Shown piece by piece: positions 40,585 through 46,500 of a stretch of 64,000 nucleotides of DNA. Every line of letters starts with the position of its first letter. The first letter of the stretch is position 1. The stretch covers positions 933,688 to 997,687 of the forward strand of contig OZ241995.1 of NCBI GenBank assembly GCA_965204465.1. Reading direction: 5' to 3'. The DNA is from Leptospiria bacterium (lineage in GTDB: Bacteria; Spirochaetota; Leptospiria; Turneriellales; CBDBES01). The position numbers were made by a program, and so were the translations under genes. A model generated the notes under the pieces. It worked only from the letters and a program-made list of their open reading frames with translations, did no database searches and was not told the DNA's origin.

Positions 40585-43500
40585 ATGAAAACCAATCAAT
40601 TAAATATAAGAATACCCTTTATTTTAATAATATGGTGCTTGATCACTTTAGCCCATTGCAGTAGTGGTAAAAAGAATACCGACCCTGCTGTAGTGAGCGC
40701 CCCTGAGACATTCAACTACATCTGTACGAATGGAACCCCAGAAGAGGGTACTACCACTGTTCAAAATGCTCAACGCTGCGAATCATGCGAAAGCGGATGG
40801 ACGCTCAATACCCGCACTTTCAAGTGTGATGGTAATAGCTTCACCTGTTCTAATGGTGTAGCCGCAGATGGCATGCCTTCGACTCCAGGCGAAGCCCTTT
40901 GTATGATGTGTAACACAGGCTATCAGCTGAATAGCGATGATACAACCTGTCTTGAAAATTCCTACATCTGTAATAATGGTACACCATCAAGCGAACGTCC
41001 TCTCAACAACGGTGAAGAACAATGTACAAATTGCAATGCAGGTTATCGGCTAAACGGAGCACAATGCGAATCGATAAACTACCGTTATGTTTGTACCAAC
41101 GGTACACCAAAAAGTGGTACTAACACCACCCAAAATACCCAAAACTGTGAAAGTTGCGACAGCGGCTATGCGCTTAACCCTGTTACGTCTACCTGTGATG
41201 GCAGTAGCTATACTTGTCCCAATGGTCTACCCGAAGATGGAATGCCTACTACCGACGGCGAGGCACTCTGTGTGAGCTGCAATGACGGCTATCGGATCAG
41301 TAGCGACAAGACAACCTGTCTTGAAAACTCCTACACTTGTAACAATGGCACACCACAAAGCGGTAGGCCAATCAATAATGGTGAAGAAATCTGTGAAAGC
41401 TGCAATCCCACTTATCATCTACAAAGTGGTCTTTGCGTAGAAAATGCATATGTTTGTGCAAACGGTACACCAGAAAGCGGTGCACCTGCGGTACATAATA
41501 CTCAAAGCTGTGGATCATGCAATAGCGGATGGACACTCAATGCCGACACTATGCTGTGTGAAGGCAATAGCTATACATGTCCAAATGGTCTACCCACAGA
41601 TGGAATGCCGGCGATTCCCAATGACGAAAGTTGCGCTAGTTGCAACCCAGGCTATCGTTTGAATAGCAATGATTGTCTTGCAAACTCCTACTCCTGTCCC
41701 GATGGTACCCCCGAAAGTGGTAGACCGTCTACTAACGGCGAAAAACTTTGTGTAGCCTGTGACAGCAATTACCATCTGGAAAGTGGTCTCTGCGTAGAAA
41801 ATGCATATGCTTGTGCAAACGGTACACCAAAAAGCGGTACACCTGCGGTACACAATAGCCAAATGTGCGAAATCTGTAACAGCGGATGGACACTCAATGC
41901 AGACACCTTGCTATGTGAAGGCAATAGCTATACATGTCCAAATGGCGTAGCGACAGATGGAATGCCGGTGATTCCCAATGACGAAAGTTGCGCTAGTTGC
42001 AACCCAGGCTATCGTTTGAATAGCAATGATTGTATTGCAAACTCCTACTCCTGTCCCAATGGTACCCCTGAAAGTGGTATACCGGTTACCAACGGCGAAA
42101 AACTCTGTGCAGCCTGTAACAGCAATTATCATCTGGAAAGTGATCTCTGCGTAGAAAATGCATATATTTGTGTAAACGGTACACCAAAAAGCGGTATACC
42201 TGCAGTACATAATACCCAAAGCTGTGGATCATGCAATGGCGGATGGACACTCAATGCAGACACCTTGCTGTGTGAAGGCAATAGCTATACATGTCCAAAT
42301 GGCGTAGCGACAGATGGAATGCCGTTAACTCCCGATGACCTAAGTTGCGCTAGTTGCAACCCAGGCTATCGTTTGAATAGCAATGATTGTATTGCAAACT
42401 CCTATACCTGTGATAATGGTACTCCTGCAAGCGAACTCCCTCTCAACAACGGTGAAGAACGCTGTATAACTTGTGATCGTAACTATCATCTGGAAATTGA
42501 TCTCTGCGTAGAAAATGCATATGTTTGTTCAAACGGTACACCAGAAAGCGGTACACCTGTAGTACATAATACCCAAAGCTGTGGATCATGCAATAGCGGA
42601 TGGACACTTAATTCCGGCACCTTGCTATGTGAAGGCAATAGCTATACATGTCCAAATGGCGTAGCGACAGGTGGAATGCCGTTAATTCCCAGTGACGAAA
42701 GTTGCACTAGCTGTAACCCAGGCTATCGTTTGAGTAGCGATGATTGTCTTGAAAATTCCTACTCCTGTCCCAATGGTATCCCCGAAATAGGAATGCCGGT
42801 TACCAACGACGAAGCACTCTGTTCGCTTTGTAATACAGGCTATAGGCTTAATGGAGATAATACCGCCTGTCTTGAGAACTCCTATACCTGTAGCAATGGC
42901 GCACCACAAAGCGGTAGCCCAATCAGTAATGGTGAAGAACGCTGTGCAAGTTGCAATACAGGTTATCGGCTAAACGGAGTACTATGTGAATCGATAAACT
43001 ACCGTTATGTTTGTACCAACGGTACACCAGAAAGCGGTGCTACTACTGTCCAAAATACCCAAAATTGCGAGAGTTGCAACAGCCGTTATACGCTTAATCC
43101 AATTACATCTACCTGTGATGGCAATAACTATACCTGTACTAACGGTCTACCCGAAGATGGAAGGCCTACTACCGATGGCGAGGGACTCTGCGTGAGCTGC
43201 AATGACGGCTATCGGCTTAATGGAGATAATACCGCCTGTATTGGAAACTCCTATACCTGTAACAATGGCGCACCTGAAAGCGGTAGCCCAATCAACAATG
43301 GTGAAGAACGCTGTACGAATTGCAATGTAGGTTATCGGCTAAACGGAGTACGATGTGAATCGATAGCTTACCCTTATGTTTGTACCAACGGTACACCAGA
43401 AAGCGGTACTACCGCCATCCAAAATACCCAAAGCTGCGACAGTTGCGACAGTGGTTATACGCTTAATTCAGGTACATCTACCTGTGATGGCAATAACTAT

Positions 43501-46500
43501 ACCTGTGCCAATGGTCTACCCGCAGATGGAAGGCCTGGTGTCGACGGTGAGGCACTCTGTGTGAGTTGCAATGACGGCTATCGGATCAGTAGTGACAGTA
43601 GAACCTGTCTTGAAAACTCCTACGTCTGTAATGATGGCCTACCGGCGAGCGGTAGACCAACCAACAATGGTGAAGAACGCTGTATGGCATGTAACGGCGG
43701 GTATGAATTAAATGGGGTACTATGTGAATTGCGAACCTACCCTTATGTTTGTACTAACGGTACAGCAGAAAGCGGTACTACCACTACCCCAAATACCCAA
43801 CGCTGCAATACCTGTACCTCTGGTTATACACTTGATCTCACGACATCTACCTGTAATGGAAACAACTATACTTGTACTAATGGCATAGAGGCAGCAGGGA
43901 TGCCTTTGACTCCCAACGAAGAAGTCTGTGAAAGCTGCAATCCCACTTATCATCTGGAAGCTGATCTTTGCGTAGAAAATGCATACACTTGTGCAAACGG
44001 TACGCCGGAAAGCGGTAGACCGATTACCAATGGTGAAGCACTCTGTTCTGGTTGTAACGCTGGTTATCGGGCTAATGGAGATGATACCATCTGTCTTGAA
44101 AACTCCTACTCCTGTCCCAATGGTATCCCCGAAAGTGGTAGACCGTCTACTAACGGCGAAAGACTCTGTGTAGCCTGTGACAGCAATTATCATCTGGAAG
44201 GTGATTTTTGCGTAGAAAATGCATATGTTTGTGTAAACGGTACACCAGAAAGCGGTACACCTGCAGTACATAATATCCAAAGCTGTGAATCATGCAATAG
44301 CGGATGGACACTCAATTCCGGCACCTTGCGATGTGATGGCAATAGCTATACATGTCCAAATGGCGTAGCGACAGATGGAATGCCGGCGATTCCCAATGAC
44401 CTAAGTTGCGCTAGTTGCAACCCAGGCTATCGTTTGAATAGCAATGATTGTATTGCAAACTCCTATACCTGTGATAATGGTACTCCTGCAAGCGAACTCC
44501 CTCTCAACAACGGTGAAGAACGCTGTATAACTTGTGATCGTAACTATCATCTGGAAATTGATCTCTGCGTAGAAAATGCATATGTTTGTTCAAACGGTAC
44601 ACCAGAAAGCGGTACACCTGTAGTACATAATACCCAAAGCTGTGGATCATGCAATAGCGGATGGACACTTAATTCCGGCACCTTGCTATGTGAAGGCAAT
44701 AGCTATACATGTCCAAATGGCGTAGCGACAGGTGGAATGCCGTTAATTCCCAGTGACGAAAGTTGCACTAGCTGTAACCCAGGCTATCGTTTGAGTAGCG
44801 ATGATTGTCTTGAAAATTCCTACTCCTGTCCCAATGGTATCCCCGAAATAGGAATGCCGGTTACCAACGACGAAGCACTCTGTTCGCTTTGTAATACAGG
44901 CTATAGGCTTAATGGAGATAATACCGCCTGTCTTGAGAACTCCTATACCTGTAGCAATGGCGCACCACAAAGCGGTAGCCCAATCAGTAATGGTGAAGAA
45001 CGCTGTGCAAGTTGCAATACAGGTTATCGGCTAAACGGAGTACTATGTGAATCGATAAACTACCGTTATGTTTGTACCAACGGTACACCAGAAAGCGGTG
45101 CTACTACTGTCCAAAATACCCAAAATTGCGAGAGTTGCAACAGCCGTTATACGCTTAATCCAATTACATCTACCTGTGATGGCAATAACTATACCTGTAC
45201 TAACGGTCTACCCGAAGATGGAAGGCCTACTACCGATGGCGAGGGACTCTGCGTGAGCTGCAATGACGGCTATCGGCTTAATGGAGATAATACCGCCTGT
45301 ATTGGAAACTCCTATACCTGTAACAATGGCGCACCTGAAAGCGGTAGCCCAATCAACAATGGTGAAGAACGCTGTACGAATTGCAATGTAGGTTATCGGC
45401 TAAACGGAGTACGATGTGAATCGATAGCTTACCCTTATGTTTGTACCAACGGTACACCAGAAAGCGGTACTACCGCCATCCAAAATACCCAGAGCTGCGA
45501 CAGTTGCGACAGTGGTTATACGCTTAATCCAATTACATCTACCTGTGATGGCAATAACTATACCTGTGCCAATGGTCTACCCTCAGATGGAAGGCCTGGT
45601 GTCGACGGTGAGGCACTCTGTTTGAGTTGCAATGACGGCTATCGGATCAGTAGTGACAGTAGAACCTGTCTTGAAAACTCCTACGTCTGTAATGATGGCC
45701 TACCGGCGAGCGGTAGCCCAACCAACAATGGTGAAGAACGCTGTATGGCATGTAACGGCGGGTATGAATTAAATGGGGTACTATGTGAATTGCTAACCTA
45801 CCCTTATGTTTGTACTAACGGTACAGCAGAAAGCGGTACTACCACTACCCCAAATACCCAACGCTGCAATGCCTGTAGTCCTGGTTATCTACTTGATTCC
45901 ACGACATCTACCTGTACGGACGATCTCTACATCTGTTCCAATGGCGTAGCGGTTATAGGCATAGCCATGACTCTTGATGAAGAAAAATGTTTTAGCTGCA
46001 ACACCGGTTATCGACTCATCGGTGATGAGTGTATTGCAAACTCCCACACTTGTATCAACGGCACGCCGGAAAGCGGCATGCCTCCGATACATAATACCCA
46101 GCGTTGTACATCGTGTAATAGCGGATGGACACTCAATGCCAGCACCTTGCAATGTGAAGGCAATAACTATGCCTGTTCAAATGGCGTAGCGATAGATGGC
46201 ATACCGACAATTCCCGATCAAGAAAGCTGCATTAGCTGTGACCCAGGTTATAGGTTGATCGGTGCTCTTTGTATTGAAAACTCCTATACCTGTGATAATG
46301 GTACACCCGCAAGTGAACTACCGATGAACGATGGTGCAGAACGCTGTGTGAGTTGCGATCCCAACTATCATCGAGAAGCCAGACTCTGTGTAGAAAATGC
46401 TTATACCTGCGTCAATGGTACACCAGATAGCAGTATACCTGCGGTACACAATAGCCAAATGTGCGAAATCTGTAACAGCGGATGGACACTCAATCCTGAT

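What the first reader, a model, noticed from the sequence alone, without database searches (positions are those of the whole stretch)
42330..45871. Near-identical ~1.5-kb intragenic duplication inside the giant repeat gene (period 2061 bp)
Segments ~42330-43810 and ~44391-45871 are almost identical at nucleotide level, with fewer than 10 mismatches seen by eye. Three minus-strand ORF artefacts recur at an exact +2061 offset: 42682/44743, 43007/45068 and 43376/45437.
The rest of the repeat array is much more diverged. This implies a very recent in-frame duplication of 687 aa (about 18 repeats) and a high propensity for expansion or contraction. It is the behaviour expected of a contingency or antigenic-length-variation locus, and it is also a hotspot for short-read misassembly.
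Basis: seen in the sequence. Interest (0 to 1): 0.55.

Follow-up and report, generated by a model that had tools for sequence, protein, structure and literature searches.

The report
Recent copy-paste inside giant repeat gene
A 7.8-kb gene for a giant cysteine-rich secreted protein of an uncultured Leptospira-like spirochete contains two almost identical 1.5-kb stretches, most likely because one block of repeats recently overwrote a sister block by homologous recombination, which is usual for this kind of gene.

Summary
Window 42335-43809 and 44396-45870 (offset 2061 nt) differ at 8 of 1475 positions, and the first 1096 nt are identical. The next longest exact repeat in the gene at any other offset is 64 nt.

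Both stretches lie in one ORF, 40585-48408 (+), 2607 aa. It has a signal peptide, 57 cysteine-rich modules of 39-41 aa, and a non-repeat C-terminal domain.

The interpretation needs correction. The shared tract is 492 aa (about 12 modules), not 687 aa. The 585 nt between the copies has no counterpart after the second copy, so the tract has two breakpoints, both inside homologous modules.

A 13-module higher-order block occurs three times. Blocks 1 and 2 are 98.5% identical; block 3 is 71.5% identical to either. Past the 3' breakpoint identity falls to about 68%. I therefore favour recent gene conversion between two old blocks over a new tandem duplication.

All 139 exact direct repeats of at least 20 nt are in frame, as reported for H. 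pylori cagY. Length or sequence variation is therefore possible, but no population data could be found.

Antigenic or contingency function is untested, and an assembly or polishing artefact cannot be excluded without reads. The finding is ordinary for giant repeat proteins, and interest is modest.

The parts
40585..48408 (+). Giant ORF of 2607 aa. It has an N-terminal signal peptide with a lipobox-like L-A-H-C (Cys25), 57 cysteine-rich modules, and a C-terminal domain of about 234 aa that is not repetitive.
   Evidence: The protein has 230 Cys. No Pfam or NCBIfam family reaches its threshold.
40723..47706 (+). Array of 57 modules of 39-41 aa (117-123 nt), each with 4 Cys: C-x-N-G-x-P...C-x-x-C-x-x-G-Y/W-x-L...C. 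The order of module types is ABCABDAEDAEDAEDAEBCABCABCFDBDAEDAEBCABCABCFGAEDAEBHABIABJ. Super-repeats are AED (357 nt) and ABC (369 nt).
   Evidence: The AlphaFold model of one ABC triple has pLDDT 79.8 and consists only of beta-hairpins.
42335..43809 (+). Copy 1 of the recently shared tract. It runs from mid-module 14 (type E) to mid-module 26 (type F) and covers 1475 nt or 492 aa.
44396..45870 (+). Copy 2 of the recently shared tract, from mid-module 31 to mid-module 43. It differs from copy 1 at 8 positions.
42335..43430 (+). Exact 1096-nt core, identical to 44396-45491. At protein level, 377 aa are identical (residues 585-961 = 1272-1648).
43810..44395 (+). Spacer between the two copies: the 3' part of module 26, modules 27-30, and the 5' part of module 31. 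It is not repeated after copy 2. Identity to 45872-46456 is 51%.
44353..44469 (+). Module 31, which is chimeric. Its first 43 nt match module 11 with 1 mismatch but differ from module 14 at 5 positions. From 44396 onward it is identical to module 14. This is the 5' recombination junction.
42169..43749 (+). Higher-order block 1, modules 13-25, with order AED AE BC ABC ABC.
44230..45810 (+). Higher-order block 2, modules 30-42. It is 98.5% identical to block 1.
46051..47706 (+). Higher-order block 3, modules 45-57. It has the same module order and is 71.5% identical to blocks 1 and 2. This is the old state of the block.
45515..45567 (+). Short patch in module 40 of copy 2. It is exactly identical to modules 37 (45146) and 20 (43085) but not to its copy-1 partner, module 23. 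It accounts for the clustered mismatches at 43468, 43471 and 43472 and is probably a later micro-conversion.
47707..48405 (+). C-terminal region that is not repetitive. It has two D-x-D-x-F motifs. The only hit is a sub-threshold match to the PPC domain.
   Evidence: PF04151: 14.5 bits against a cut-off of 25.9.
48423..48582 (+). Relic copy of the last 160 nt of the gene (48241-48400), 95% identical. It lies just after the stop codon at an offset of 182 nt, so it is out of frame.

Best explanation
The two near-identical segments result from a recent homologous recombination event inside one gene. Most likely it was a non-reciprocal gene conversion, or an equivalent double crossover.

The gene encodes a giant secreted protein, possibly lipid-anchored, made of 57 disulfide-rich modules. 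A 13-module higher-order block (AED AE BC ABC ABC, followed by an F module) was triplicated long ago.

More recently, a tract of about 1.48 kb from one of the first two blocks replaced the matching tract in the other. The tract ends lie in homologous modules, an E-type module at the 5' end and an F-type module at the 3' end.

The most recent step left 1096 nt with no differences. The 3' 380 nt carries 8-9 differences. These come from an older event, patchy repair, or later point mutations and short conversions from neighbouring modules.

Shown: the anatomy, the two breakpoints, the chimeric junction module, the third old block, and the fact that every possible repeat-mediated rearrangement stays in frame.

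Inferred: that the mechanism is gene conversion, that the array still recombines in living populations, and that the protein is exposed on the surface.
For: 1. The 1096-nt exact core plus 8 mismatches in the following 379 nt contrasts with 64 nt or less of exact identity at every other offset.
2. All mismatches fall in the last quarter of the tract (P about 2e-5 if they were spread evenly). This indicates at least two steps, or patchy repair.
3. There are two breakpoints. The spacer 43811-44395 has no counterpart after copy 2 (51% identity, different module types).
4. Module 31 is chimeric: like module 11 at its 5' end and identical to module 14 at its 3' end.
5. The same block occurs a third time at 71.5% identity. 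Just past the 3' breakpoint, the two F modules are 68% identical, which is the old divergence level. Blocks 1 and 2 therefore probably existed before the event.
6. A 53-nt patch in module 40 is identical to modules 37 and 20 but not to its partner. This shows short conversions as well.
7. All 139 exact direct repeats of at least 20 nt have offsets divisible by 3. The same property was reported for cagY, where 1,215 of 1,215 potential events are in frame (PMC2194252).
8. Distant proteins built from the same module also carry long exact internal repeats: 929 aa in P0004, 210 aa in P0001 and 173 aa in P0008.
9. The ORF stays open for 7.8 kb, and the differences between the copies are substitutions rather than indels.
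Against: - No reads, second assembly or related allele could be obtained. The reality of both copies, and their number, rests on a single assembly.
- Gene conversion cannot be told apart, from one sequence, from a tandem duplication followed by a second rearrangement.
- The argument that blocks 1 and 2 are old rests on the 3' flank and on block 3. The 5' flank is uninformative, because all AED units there are 85-96% alike.
Confidence: 0.6

Rival explanations
1. A true recent tandem duplication by unequal crossing-over between E-type modules added 2061 nt. A second event then removed or replaced the end of the second copy from mid-module F onward. The gene therefore grew recently.
For: - The offset is an exact multiple of the module length (2061 nt = 17 modules).
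- The 5' junction module is chimeric, as expected for a crossover.
- The array offers 139 in-frame substrates for recombination.
Against: - This needs two events where conversion needs one.
- The 585-nt spacer is not duplicated.
- A third old block in the same order, and old-level divergence (68%) right after the 3' breakpoint, suggest block 2 already existed.
Confidence: 0.2
2. This is an assembly or polishing artefact. In one version, two truly diverged blocks were homogenised when reads were mis-mapped during consensus polishing. In the other, the assembler traversed a repeat loop the wrong number of times, so the real copy number is 1, or 3 or more.
For: - An exact 1096-nt repeat is longer than short reads and typical insert sizes.
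- The exact giant protein is absent from a collection of 15 billion proteins, although both flanking proteins from the same 1,194,919-bp contig are present. The absence is unexplained.
- No independent copy of the locus was found.
Against: - The copies are not perfectly identical. The 8-9 differences are substitutions, several match states seen in other modules, and they are mostly non-synonymous.
- The junction module is a clean in-frame chimera.
- The ORF is intact for 7.8 kb.
- The source contig is 1.19 Mb and contains a transposase gene. If that element is multi-copy, a purely short-read assembly would tend to break there; its copy number was not checked.
- Similar long exact internal repeats occur in unrelated assemblies of proteins with the same module.
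Confidence: 0.17
3. The identity is kept by purifying selection on the protein sequence rather than by recent common origin.
For: Paralogous repeats in the gene are under purifying selection overall (dN/dS 0.2-0.5).
Against: - Not one synonymous difference occurs in 365 codons, whereas other paralogous repeats have dS of 0.15-1.3.
- Selection on the protein does not preserve silent sites.
Confidence: 0.01

Closest known systems
Helicobacter pylori cagY (middle repeat region)
   Same: - One large gene for a host-exposed protein is packed with direct DNA repeats arranged as alternating module types.
- Every potential repeat-mediated deletion or duplication is in frame: 139 of 139 here, and 1,215 of 1,215 in cagY (PMC2194252).
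- The modules contain cysteine (for cagY this is from my own knowledge).
   Different: - There is no sequence or domain relationship.
- CagY is a type IV secretion component with shown size variants within hosts and a shown functional effect. Here no variant allele, host or function is known.
- The modules here are 39-41 aa with 4 Cys, and the shared tract is far longer (1.5 kb).
Gram-positive surface proteins with identical long tandem repeats (alpha C / Rib of group B streptococci, Esp, Bap, Aap/SasG). Named from my own knowledge; no paper was read here.
   Same: - Long in-frame repeats are kept nearly identical at the DNA level by recombination.
- Repeat number changes by homologous recombination.
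   Different: - Those arrays are simple head-to-tail copies of one unit. Here the array is hierarchical (module, then triple, then 13-module block), and only one pair of blocks is homogenised.
- The repeat fold differs, and the anchoring differs (LPXTG there, signal peptide/lipobox here).
Cysteine-rich variant surface proteins of protists (Giardia VSP, Paramecium surface antigens)
   Same: - Large extracellular proteins are built from CXXC-containing cysteine-rich periods.
- Pfam VSP gives a weak hit (PF03302, E 1.5e-4).
- The best full-length database hits include protist proteins with the same kind of module (P0001, P0015).
   Different: - The score is below Pfam's threshold (21.2 against 31.4 bits).
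- Variation in those systems comes from switching expression among many genes, not from recombination within one gene.
- This is a bacterial gene in a normal chromosomal context.
EGF-like, furin-like and TNFR cysteine-rich repeats
   Same: - The predicted fold is a rod of small disulfide-stapled beta-hairpin modules.
- The best structural neighbours are Notch EGF11-13, R-spondin Fu1-Fu2 and TNFR/CD40.
- There are sub-threshold Pfam hits to cEGF and DUF4215.
   Different: - The module has its own signature (Y-x-C-x-N-G-x-P ... C-x-x-C-x-x-G-Y-x-L).
- It forms its own family of about 400-860 protein clusters that has no curated model.

Membership tests
Classical contingency locus (phase variation through simple sequence repeats) | A tract of short repeats (units of 1-9 nt) in or upstream of the gene, whose length changes shift the reading frame or alter promoter spacing | tested here: not met
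   Repeats are 117-123-nt modules and multiples of them. All 139 exact direct repeats of at least 20 nt have offsets divisible by 3. Tandem Repeats Finder reports only periods of 357, 369 and 182 nt.
Recombination-variable giant repeat surface protein (cagY / alpha C / Rib type) | Long direct repeats within the gene that are highly identical at the nucleotide level | tested here: met
   1475 nt at 99.46% identity, including 1096 exact nt. Many further exact repeats of 30-64 nt.
Recombination-variable giant repeat surface protein (cagY / alpha C / Rib type) | Every repeat-mediated deletion or duplication keeps the reading frame | tested here: met
   139 of 139 are in frame. For comparison, see PMC2194252.
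Recombination-variable giant repeat surface protein (cagY / alpha C / Rib type) | Different repeat numbers or arrangements seen among isolates or within a population | not testable with these tools
   No second copy of the locus exists in any searchable collection. No reads are available.
Recombination-variable giant repeat surface protein (cagY / alpha C / Rib type) | Export to and exposure on the cell surface | tested here: inconclusive
   The N-terminus MKTNQLNIRIPFILIIWCLITLAHC looks like a signal peptide with a lipobox-like motif, but His at position -1 is atypical. The 228 Cys in the array fit an extracytoplasmic disulfide-bonded protein. No signal-peptide predictor was available.
Giardia variant-specific surface protein (Pfam PF03302) | Score at or above Pfam's gathering threshold | tested here: not met
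   21.2 bits against a cut-off of 31.4.
EGF-like / cEGF / DUF4215 (Myxococcus-type cysteine-rich repeat) / furin-like repeats | A significant profile match or a significant fold match | tested here: not met
   [not shown]
Bacterial pre-peptidase C-terminal (PPC) domain, for the C-terminal region | Score at or above Pfam's gathering threshold | tested here: not met
   14.5 bits against 25.9. Two D-x-D-x-F motifs are visible by eye.

The most novel reading that the evidence does not exclude
The gene could be a built-in diversity generator comparable to cagY, in an uncultured Leptospirales-related spirochete. Frequent in-frame conversion and unequal exchange among 57 cysteine-rich modules would continually reshuffle a giant surface adhesin or shield. 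The module itself would be a previously uncurated bacterial (and protist) family of extracellular cysteine-rich domains, with about 400-860 protein clusters and no Pfam or NCBIfam model.
Probability: 0.15. Interest if true: 0.6.

Novelty: new member of a known kind. Interest (0 to 1): 0.3.

Why it matters
If the assembly is correct, the locus is a clean example of ongoing concerted evolution in a hierarchical repeat array. It shows one long recent conversion tract, a mapped chimeric junction, and a later micro-conversion.

It marks the gene as a likely site of strain-to-strain variation, and as a place where assemblies should not be trusted without long reads.

It also draws attention to an unannotated cysteine-rich module found in hundreds of bacterial surface-protein clusters.

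It does not, by itself, show antigenic variation or any new mechanism.

Tried and rejected
- **Orthologues or other alleles of the gene.**
  - The whole-protein search gave nothing above 31% identity.
  - The exact sequence is not in the collection.
  - A metagenome scan with the C-terminal domain and one with a 36-nt DNA pattern from the tract both returned nothing.
  - Exact look-ups of the flanking proteins and of LepA in the contig index failed.
- **Locating the genome through the NuoG-like neighbour.** The GTDB representative scan gave only 30-46% matches to Bdellovibrionota MAGs. This was misleading. LepA places the organism near Leptospirales, Turneriella and Spirochaetia MAGs at 68-74% identity, and Leptospira at about 63%.
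- **Extended older duplication.** I considered that the 5' shoulder (42031-42334, about 90%) showed a longer, older duplication. I rejected this because those modules match other AED units equally well.
- **Positive selection between the copies.** dN/dS is 1.2-2.0 but rests on 16 or fewer differences. Across older paralogues it is 0.2-0.5. There is no significant signal.
- **Horizontal transfer or GC-biased conversion as the cause of the raised GC (45% against about 35%).** The rise is at codon position 2 (0.53), which reflects amino-acid composition. GC3 (0.378) lies at the upper end of the window's range.
- **Promoter and terminator scan across the gene.** Counts were no higher than in shuffled sequence.
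- **Literature search for a Leptospira cysteine-rich repeat lipoprotein.** Nothing relevant was found.
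Full report
**1. The observation**

The window holds one very long ORF, 40585-48408 on the plus strand, encoding 2607 aa. I compared the sequence with itself at an offset of 2061 nt.
- 42335-43430 is identical to 44396-45491, a run of 1096 nt.
- The match continues to 43809/45870 with 8 substitutions, giving 1475 nt at 99.46% identity. Position 43810 is a ninth mismatch.
- After 43816 the identity drops to 68% for the rest of that module and to about 50% further on.
- Upstream, 42031-42334 is 89.8% identical at this offset.

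However, 43007/45068 and 43376/45437 are on the plus strand, and only 42682/44743 is on the minus strand. At least ten short-ORF pairs recur at +2061.

The rest of the array is much less similar.
- The longest exact repeat at any other offset is 64 nt.
- The best other module pair is 95.7% identical over 117 nt.
- Super-repeats are at most 90% identical.

**2. Anatomy of the gene**

The protein starts with a signal-peptide-like N-terminus, MKTNQLNIRIPFILIIWCLITLAHC. It is followed by 57 modules of 39-41 aa. Each module has four cysteines and the signature C-x-N-G-x-P ... C-x-x-C-x-x-G-Y/W-x-L ... C. The array contains 228 Cys.

Clustering the modules gives this order of types: ABCABDAEDAEDAEDAEBCABCABCFDBDAEDAEBCABCABCFGAEDAEBHABIABJ.

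The array has three levels.
- Single modules of 117 or 123 nt.
- Triples: AED (357 nt) and ABC (369 nt), which Tandem Repeats Finder also detects.
- A 13-module block, AED AE BC ABC ABC, present three times: modules 13-25, 30-42 and 45-57.

Blocks 1 and 2 are 98.5% identical. Block 3 is 71.5% identical to either.

The last 234 aa are not repetitive. Their only hit is a sub-threshold PPC-domain match.

**3. What the near-identity is**

The shared tract runs from the middle of E-type module 14/31 to the middle of F-type module 26/43. That is 492 aa, or about 12 modules. The offset, by contrast, is 687 aa, or 17 modules.

The 585 nt between the copies (rest of module 26, modules 27-30, start of module 31; types F-D-B-D-A-E) has no counterpart after copy 2. 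There the types are F-G-A-E-D, and identity at the offset is 51%. A single unequal crossover would make the whole 2061-nt period identical. The tract instead has two ends, both in homologous modules.

At the 5' end, module 31 is a chimera.
- Its first 43 nt match module 11 with one mismatch, and differ from module 14 at five positions.
- From 44396 onward it is identical to module 14.

The 5' shoulder is not part of the event. Modules 29, 30 and 31 match modules 9, 16 and 11 as well as or better than they match their +2061 partners.

Immediately past the 3' end, the two F modules are 68% identical. This is about the same as the divergence of the old third block (71.5%).

Taken together, two old blocks were most probably homogenised by a conversion tract of about 1.48 kb. 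A fresh duplication is less likely. A duplication followed by a second rearrangement remains possible.

**4. More than one step**

All mismatches lie in the last 380 nt of the tract (0 in 1096 nt, then 9 in 380). If they were evenly spread, the probability of this would be about 2e-5 for eight sites.

Three clustered differences (43468, 43471, 43472) arise because module 40 of copy 2 carries a 53-nt stretch, 45515-45567. This stretch is exactly identical to modules 37 and 20 but not to its partner, module 23. A later short conversion explains it best.

At most other sites, one state is unique and the other is shared with paralogues, as expected for point mutations after the event.

**5. Recombination potential**

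The gene holds 139 maximal exact direct repeats of at least 20 nt. The preceding 40.6 kb of the window has 8, and the following 15.6 kb has 2. All 139 have offsets divisible by three.

Every repeat-mediated deletion, duplication or conversion would therefore keep the frame. Aras et al. reported the same for H. pylori cagY, where 1,215 of 1,215 potential events are in frame (PMC2194252).

This shows capacity for variation, not that variation occurs.

**6. Selection and composition**

- dN/dS among older paralogous repeats is 0.2-0.5. The repeats are constrained protein sequence.
- Between the two copies, the few differences are mostly non-synonymous (dN/dS 1.2-2.0), but there are too few to test.
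- There is no synonymous difference in 365 codons, which rules out selection as the cause of the identity.
- The gene's higher GC (45.5% against about 35%) comes from codon position 2 (0.53). GC3 (0.378) is at the upper end of the window's range. The rise reflects Cys/Gly/Pro/Thr/Ala content and is not a sign of foreign origin.

**7. What the protein is**

No curated family reaches its threshold.
- Pfam VSP: 21.2 bits against 31.4.
- cEGF: 18.6 bits against 26.6.
- DUF4215: 18.5 bits against 27.
- NCBIfam: no hit.

No PDB sequence is related.

An AlphaFold model of one ABC triple was built on an alignment of 46 triples from the gene itself. It has pLDDT 79.8 and consists only of short beta-hairpins. 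The structural neighbours are not significant, but they are consistently small disulfide-rich extracellular repeats.
- R-spondin furin-like repeats, TNFR/CD40 and other EGF domains, Foldseek E of 0.14 or more.

A profile of the triple was searched against 1.84 billion representative proteins. It finds 858 clusters at E of 1e-3 or below, and 405 at 1e-10 or below. In the top hits the module is combined with DUF285, fn3, GLUG, CARDB, aBig_2 or lactonase-type propellers. These domains are common in bacterial surface proteins (my own knowledge). The module itself has no Pfam model.

Several distant relatives also contain long exact internal repeats: 929 aa in P0004, 210 aa in P0001 and 173 aa in P0008. 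Homogenised internal repeats are therefore usual for proteins built from this module.

**8. Organism and context**

The neighbours are ordinary chromosomal genes.
- PurL, LepA, GlnA, UvrD, NuoG-like and DapD-like genes.
- A macro-domain gene that ends 21 nt before the giant gene.

LepA is 100% identical to a protein from a 1,194,919-bp NCBI/ENA contig. The next best hits are 68-74% identical and are labelled Spirochaetia, Leptospirales, Turneriella or Leptospiraceae MAGs. Leptospira itself is at about 63%. The source is therefore an uncultured lineage related to Leptospirales.

The flanking proteins are in the protein collection, but the exact giant protein is not. No relative above 31% identity was found. 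I cannot explain this absence.

**9. Limits**

I found no reads, second assembly or related allele. An assembly or polishing artefact therefore cannot be excluded.

Several points argue against an artefact but do not settle the matter.
- The copies differ by a few substitutions with paralogue-like states.
- The junction is a clean chimera.
- The ORF is intact.
- The contig is long.

'Antigenic' or 'contingency' function is an analogy only. There are no simple-sequence repeats, and the host or habitat is unknown.

**10. Verdict**

The event was recent and recombinational, and the locus is a hazard for assemblers. However, the tract is 492 aa with two breakpoints, and is best read as gene conversion between old higher-order blocks. 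Variation in length or antigenicity is not shown.

This is a new member of a known kind, namely concerted evolution in giant repeat surface-protein genes. Interest is modest.

Noticed in passing
window 48241-48400 and 48423-48582: The last 160 nt of the giant gene are repeated just after its stop codon at 95% identity. The offset is 182 nt, so the relic is out of frame and has no start codon. Recombination between the two copies would give the protein a different C-terminal end (...RILRTQTGIELRGKRVFSIQ instead of ...RILRTETAP).
   Followed up: partly
window 37465-39918 (-): The divergently oriented neighbour encodes an 817-aa protein that combines five thrombospondin type 3 repeats with a thiol-activated (cholesterol-dependent) cytolysin domain (Pfam E 5e-26). 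This is an unusual combination for a spirochete-like genome. Its exact sequence is also absent from the protein collection.
   Followed up: no
window 40723-47706; proteins P0139-P0280: The 39-41-aa module (Y-x-C-x-N-G-x-P...C-x-x-C-x-x-G-Y-x-L) defines a family of 858 protein clusters (405 at E of 1e-10 or below). No Pfam or NCBIfam model covers it. In bacteria it occurs with DUF285, fn3, GLUG, CARDB and aBig_2 domains, and it also occurs in protist proteins.
   Followed up: partly
window 40585-48408: The exact giant protein is not in the 15-billion-protein collection, and no near-identical protein was returned. Both flanking proteins and LepA from the same 1.19-Mb contig are present. The reason is unknown. 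It could be a different gene call, filtering of repeats, or a different assembly version.
   Followed up: partly
window 26655-28196 (+): A DDE transposase gene (Pfam DDE_Tnp_1_6 and DUF772) sits among housekeeping genes. It appears to be an insertion sequence.
   Followed up: no
window 40054-40563 (+): A macro-domain protein gene (Pfam E 3e-30) ends 21 nt before the giant gene's start codon on the same strand. The two may be co-transcribed.
   Followed up: no
window 43720-44280 (-): A 186-aa ORF lies antisense inside the giant gene. It falls in the spacer between the two copies and looks like a by-product of the repeat composition rather than a gene.
   Followed up: no
loci L001-L080: The NuoG-like neighbour (48724-50289) found only 30-46% matches, mostly in Bdellovibrionota/Oligoflexia MAGs. 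LepA, in contrast, places the genome near Leptospirales. Either this gene has an unusual history, or the pattern-based scan missed the true relatives.
   Followed up: no
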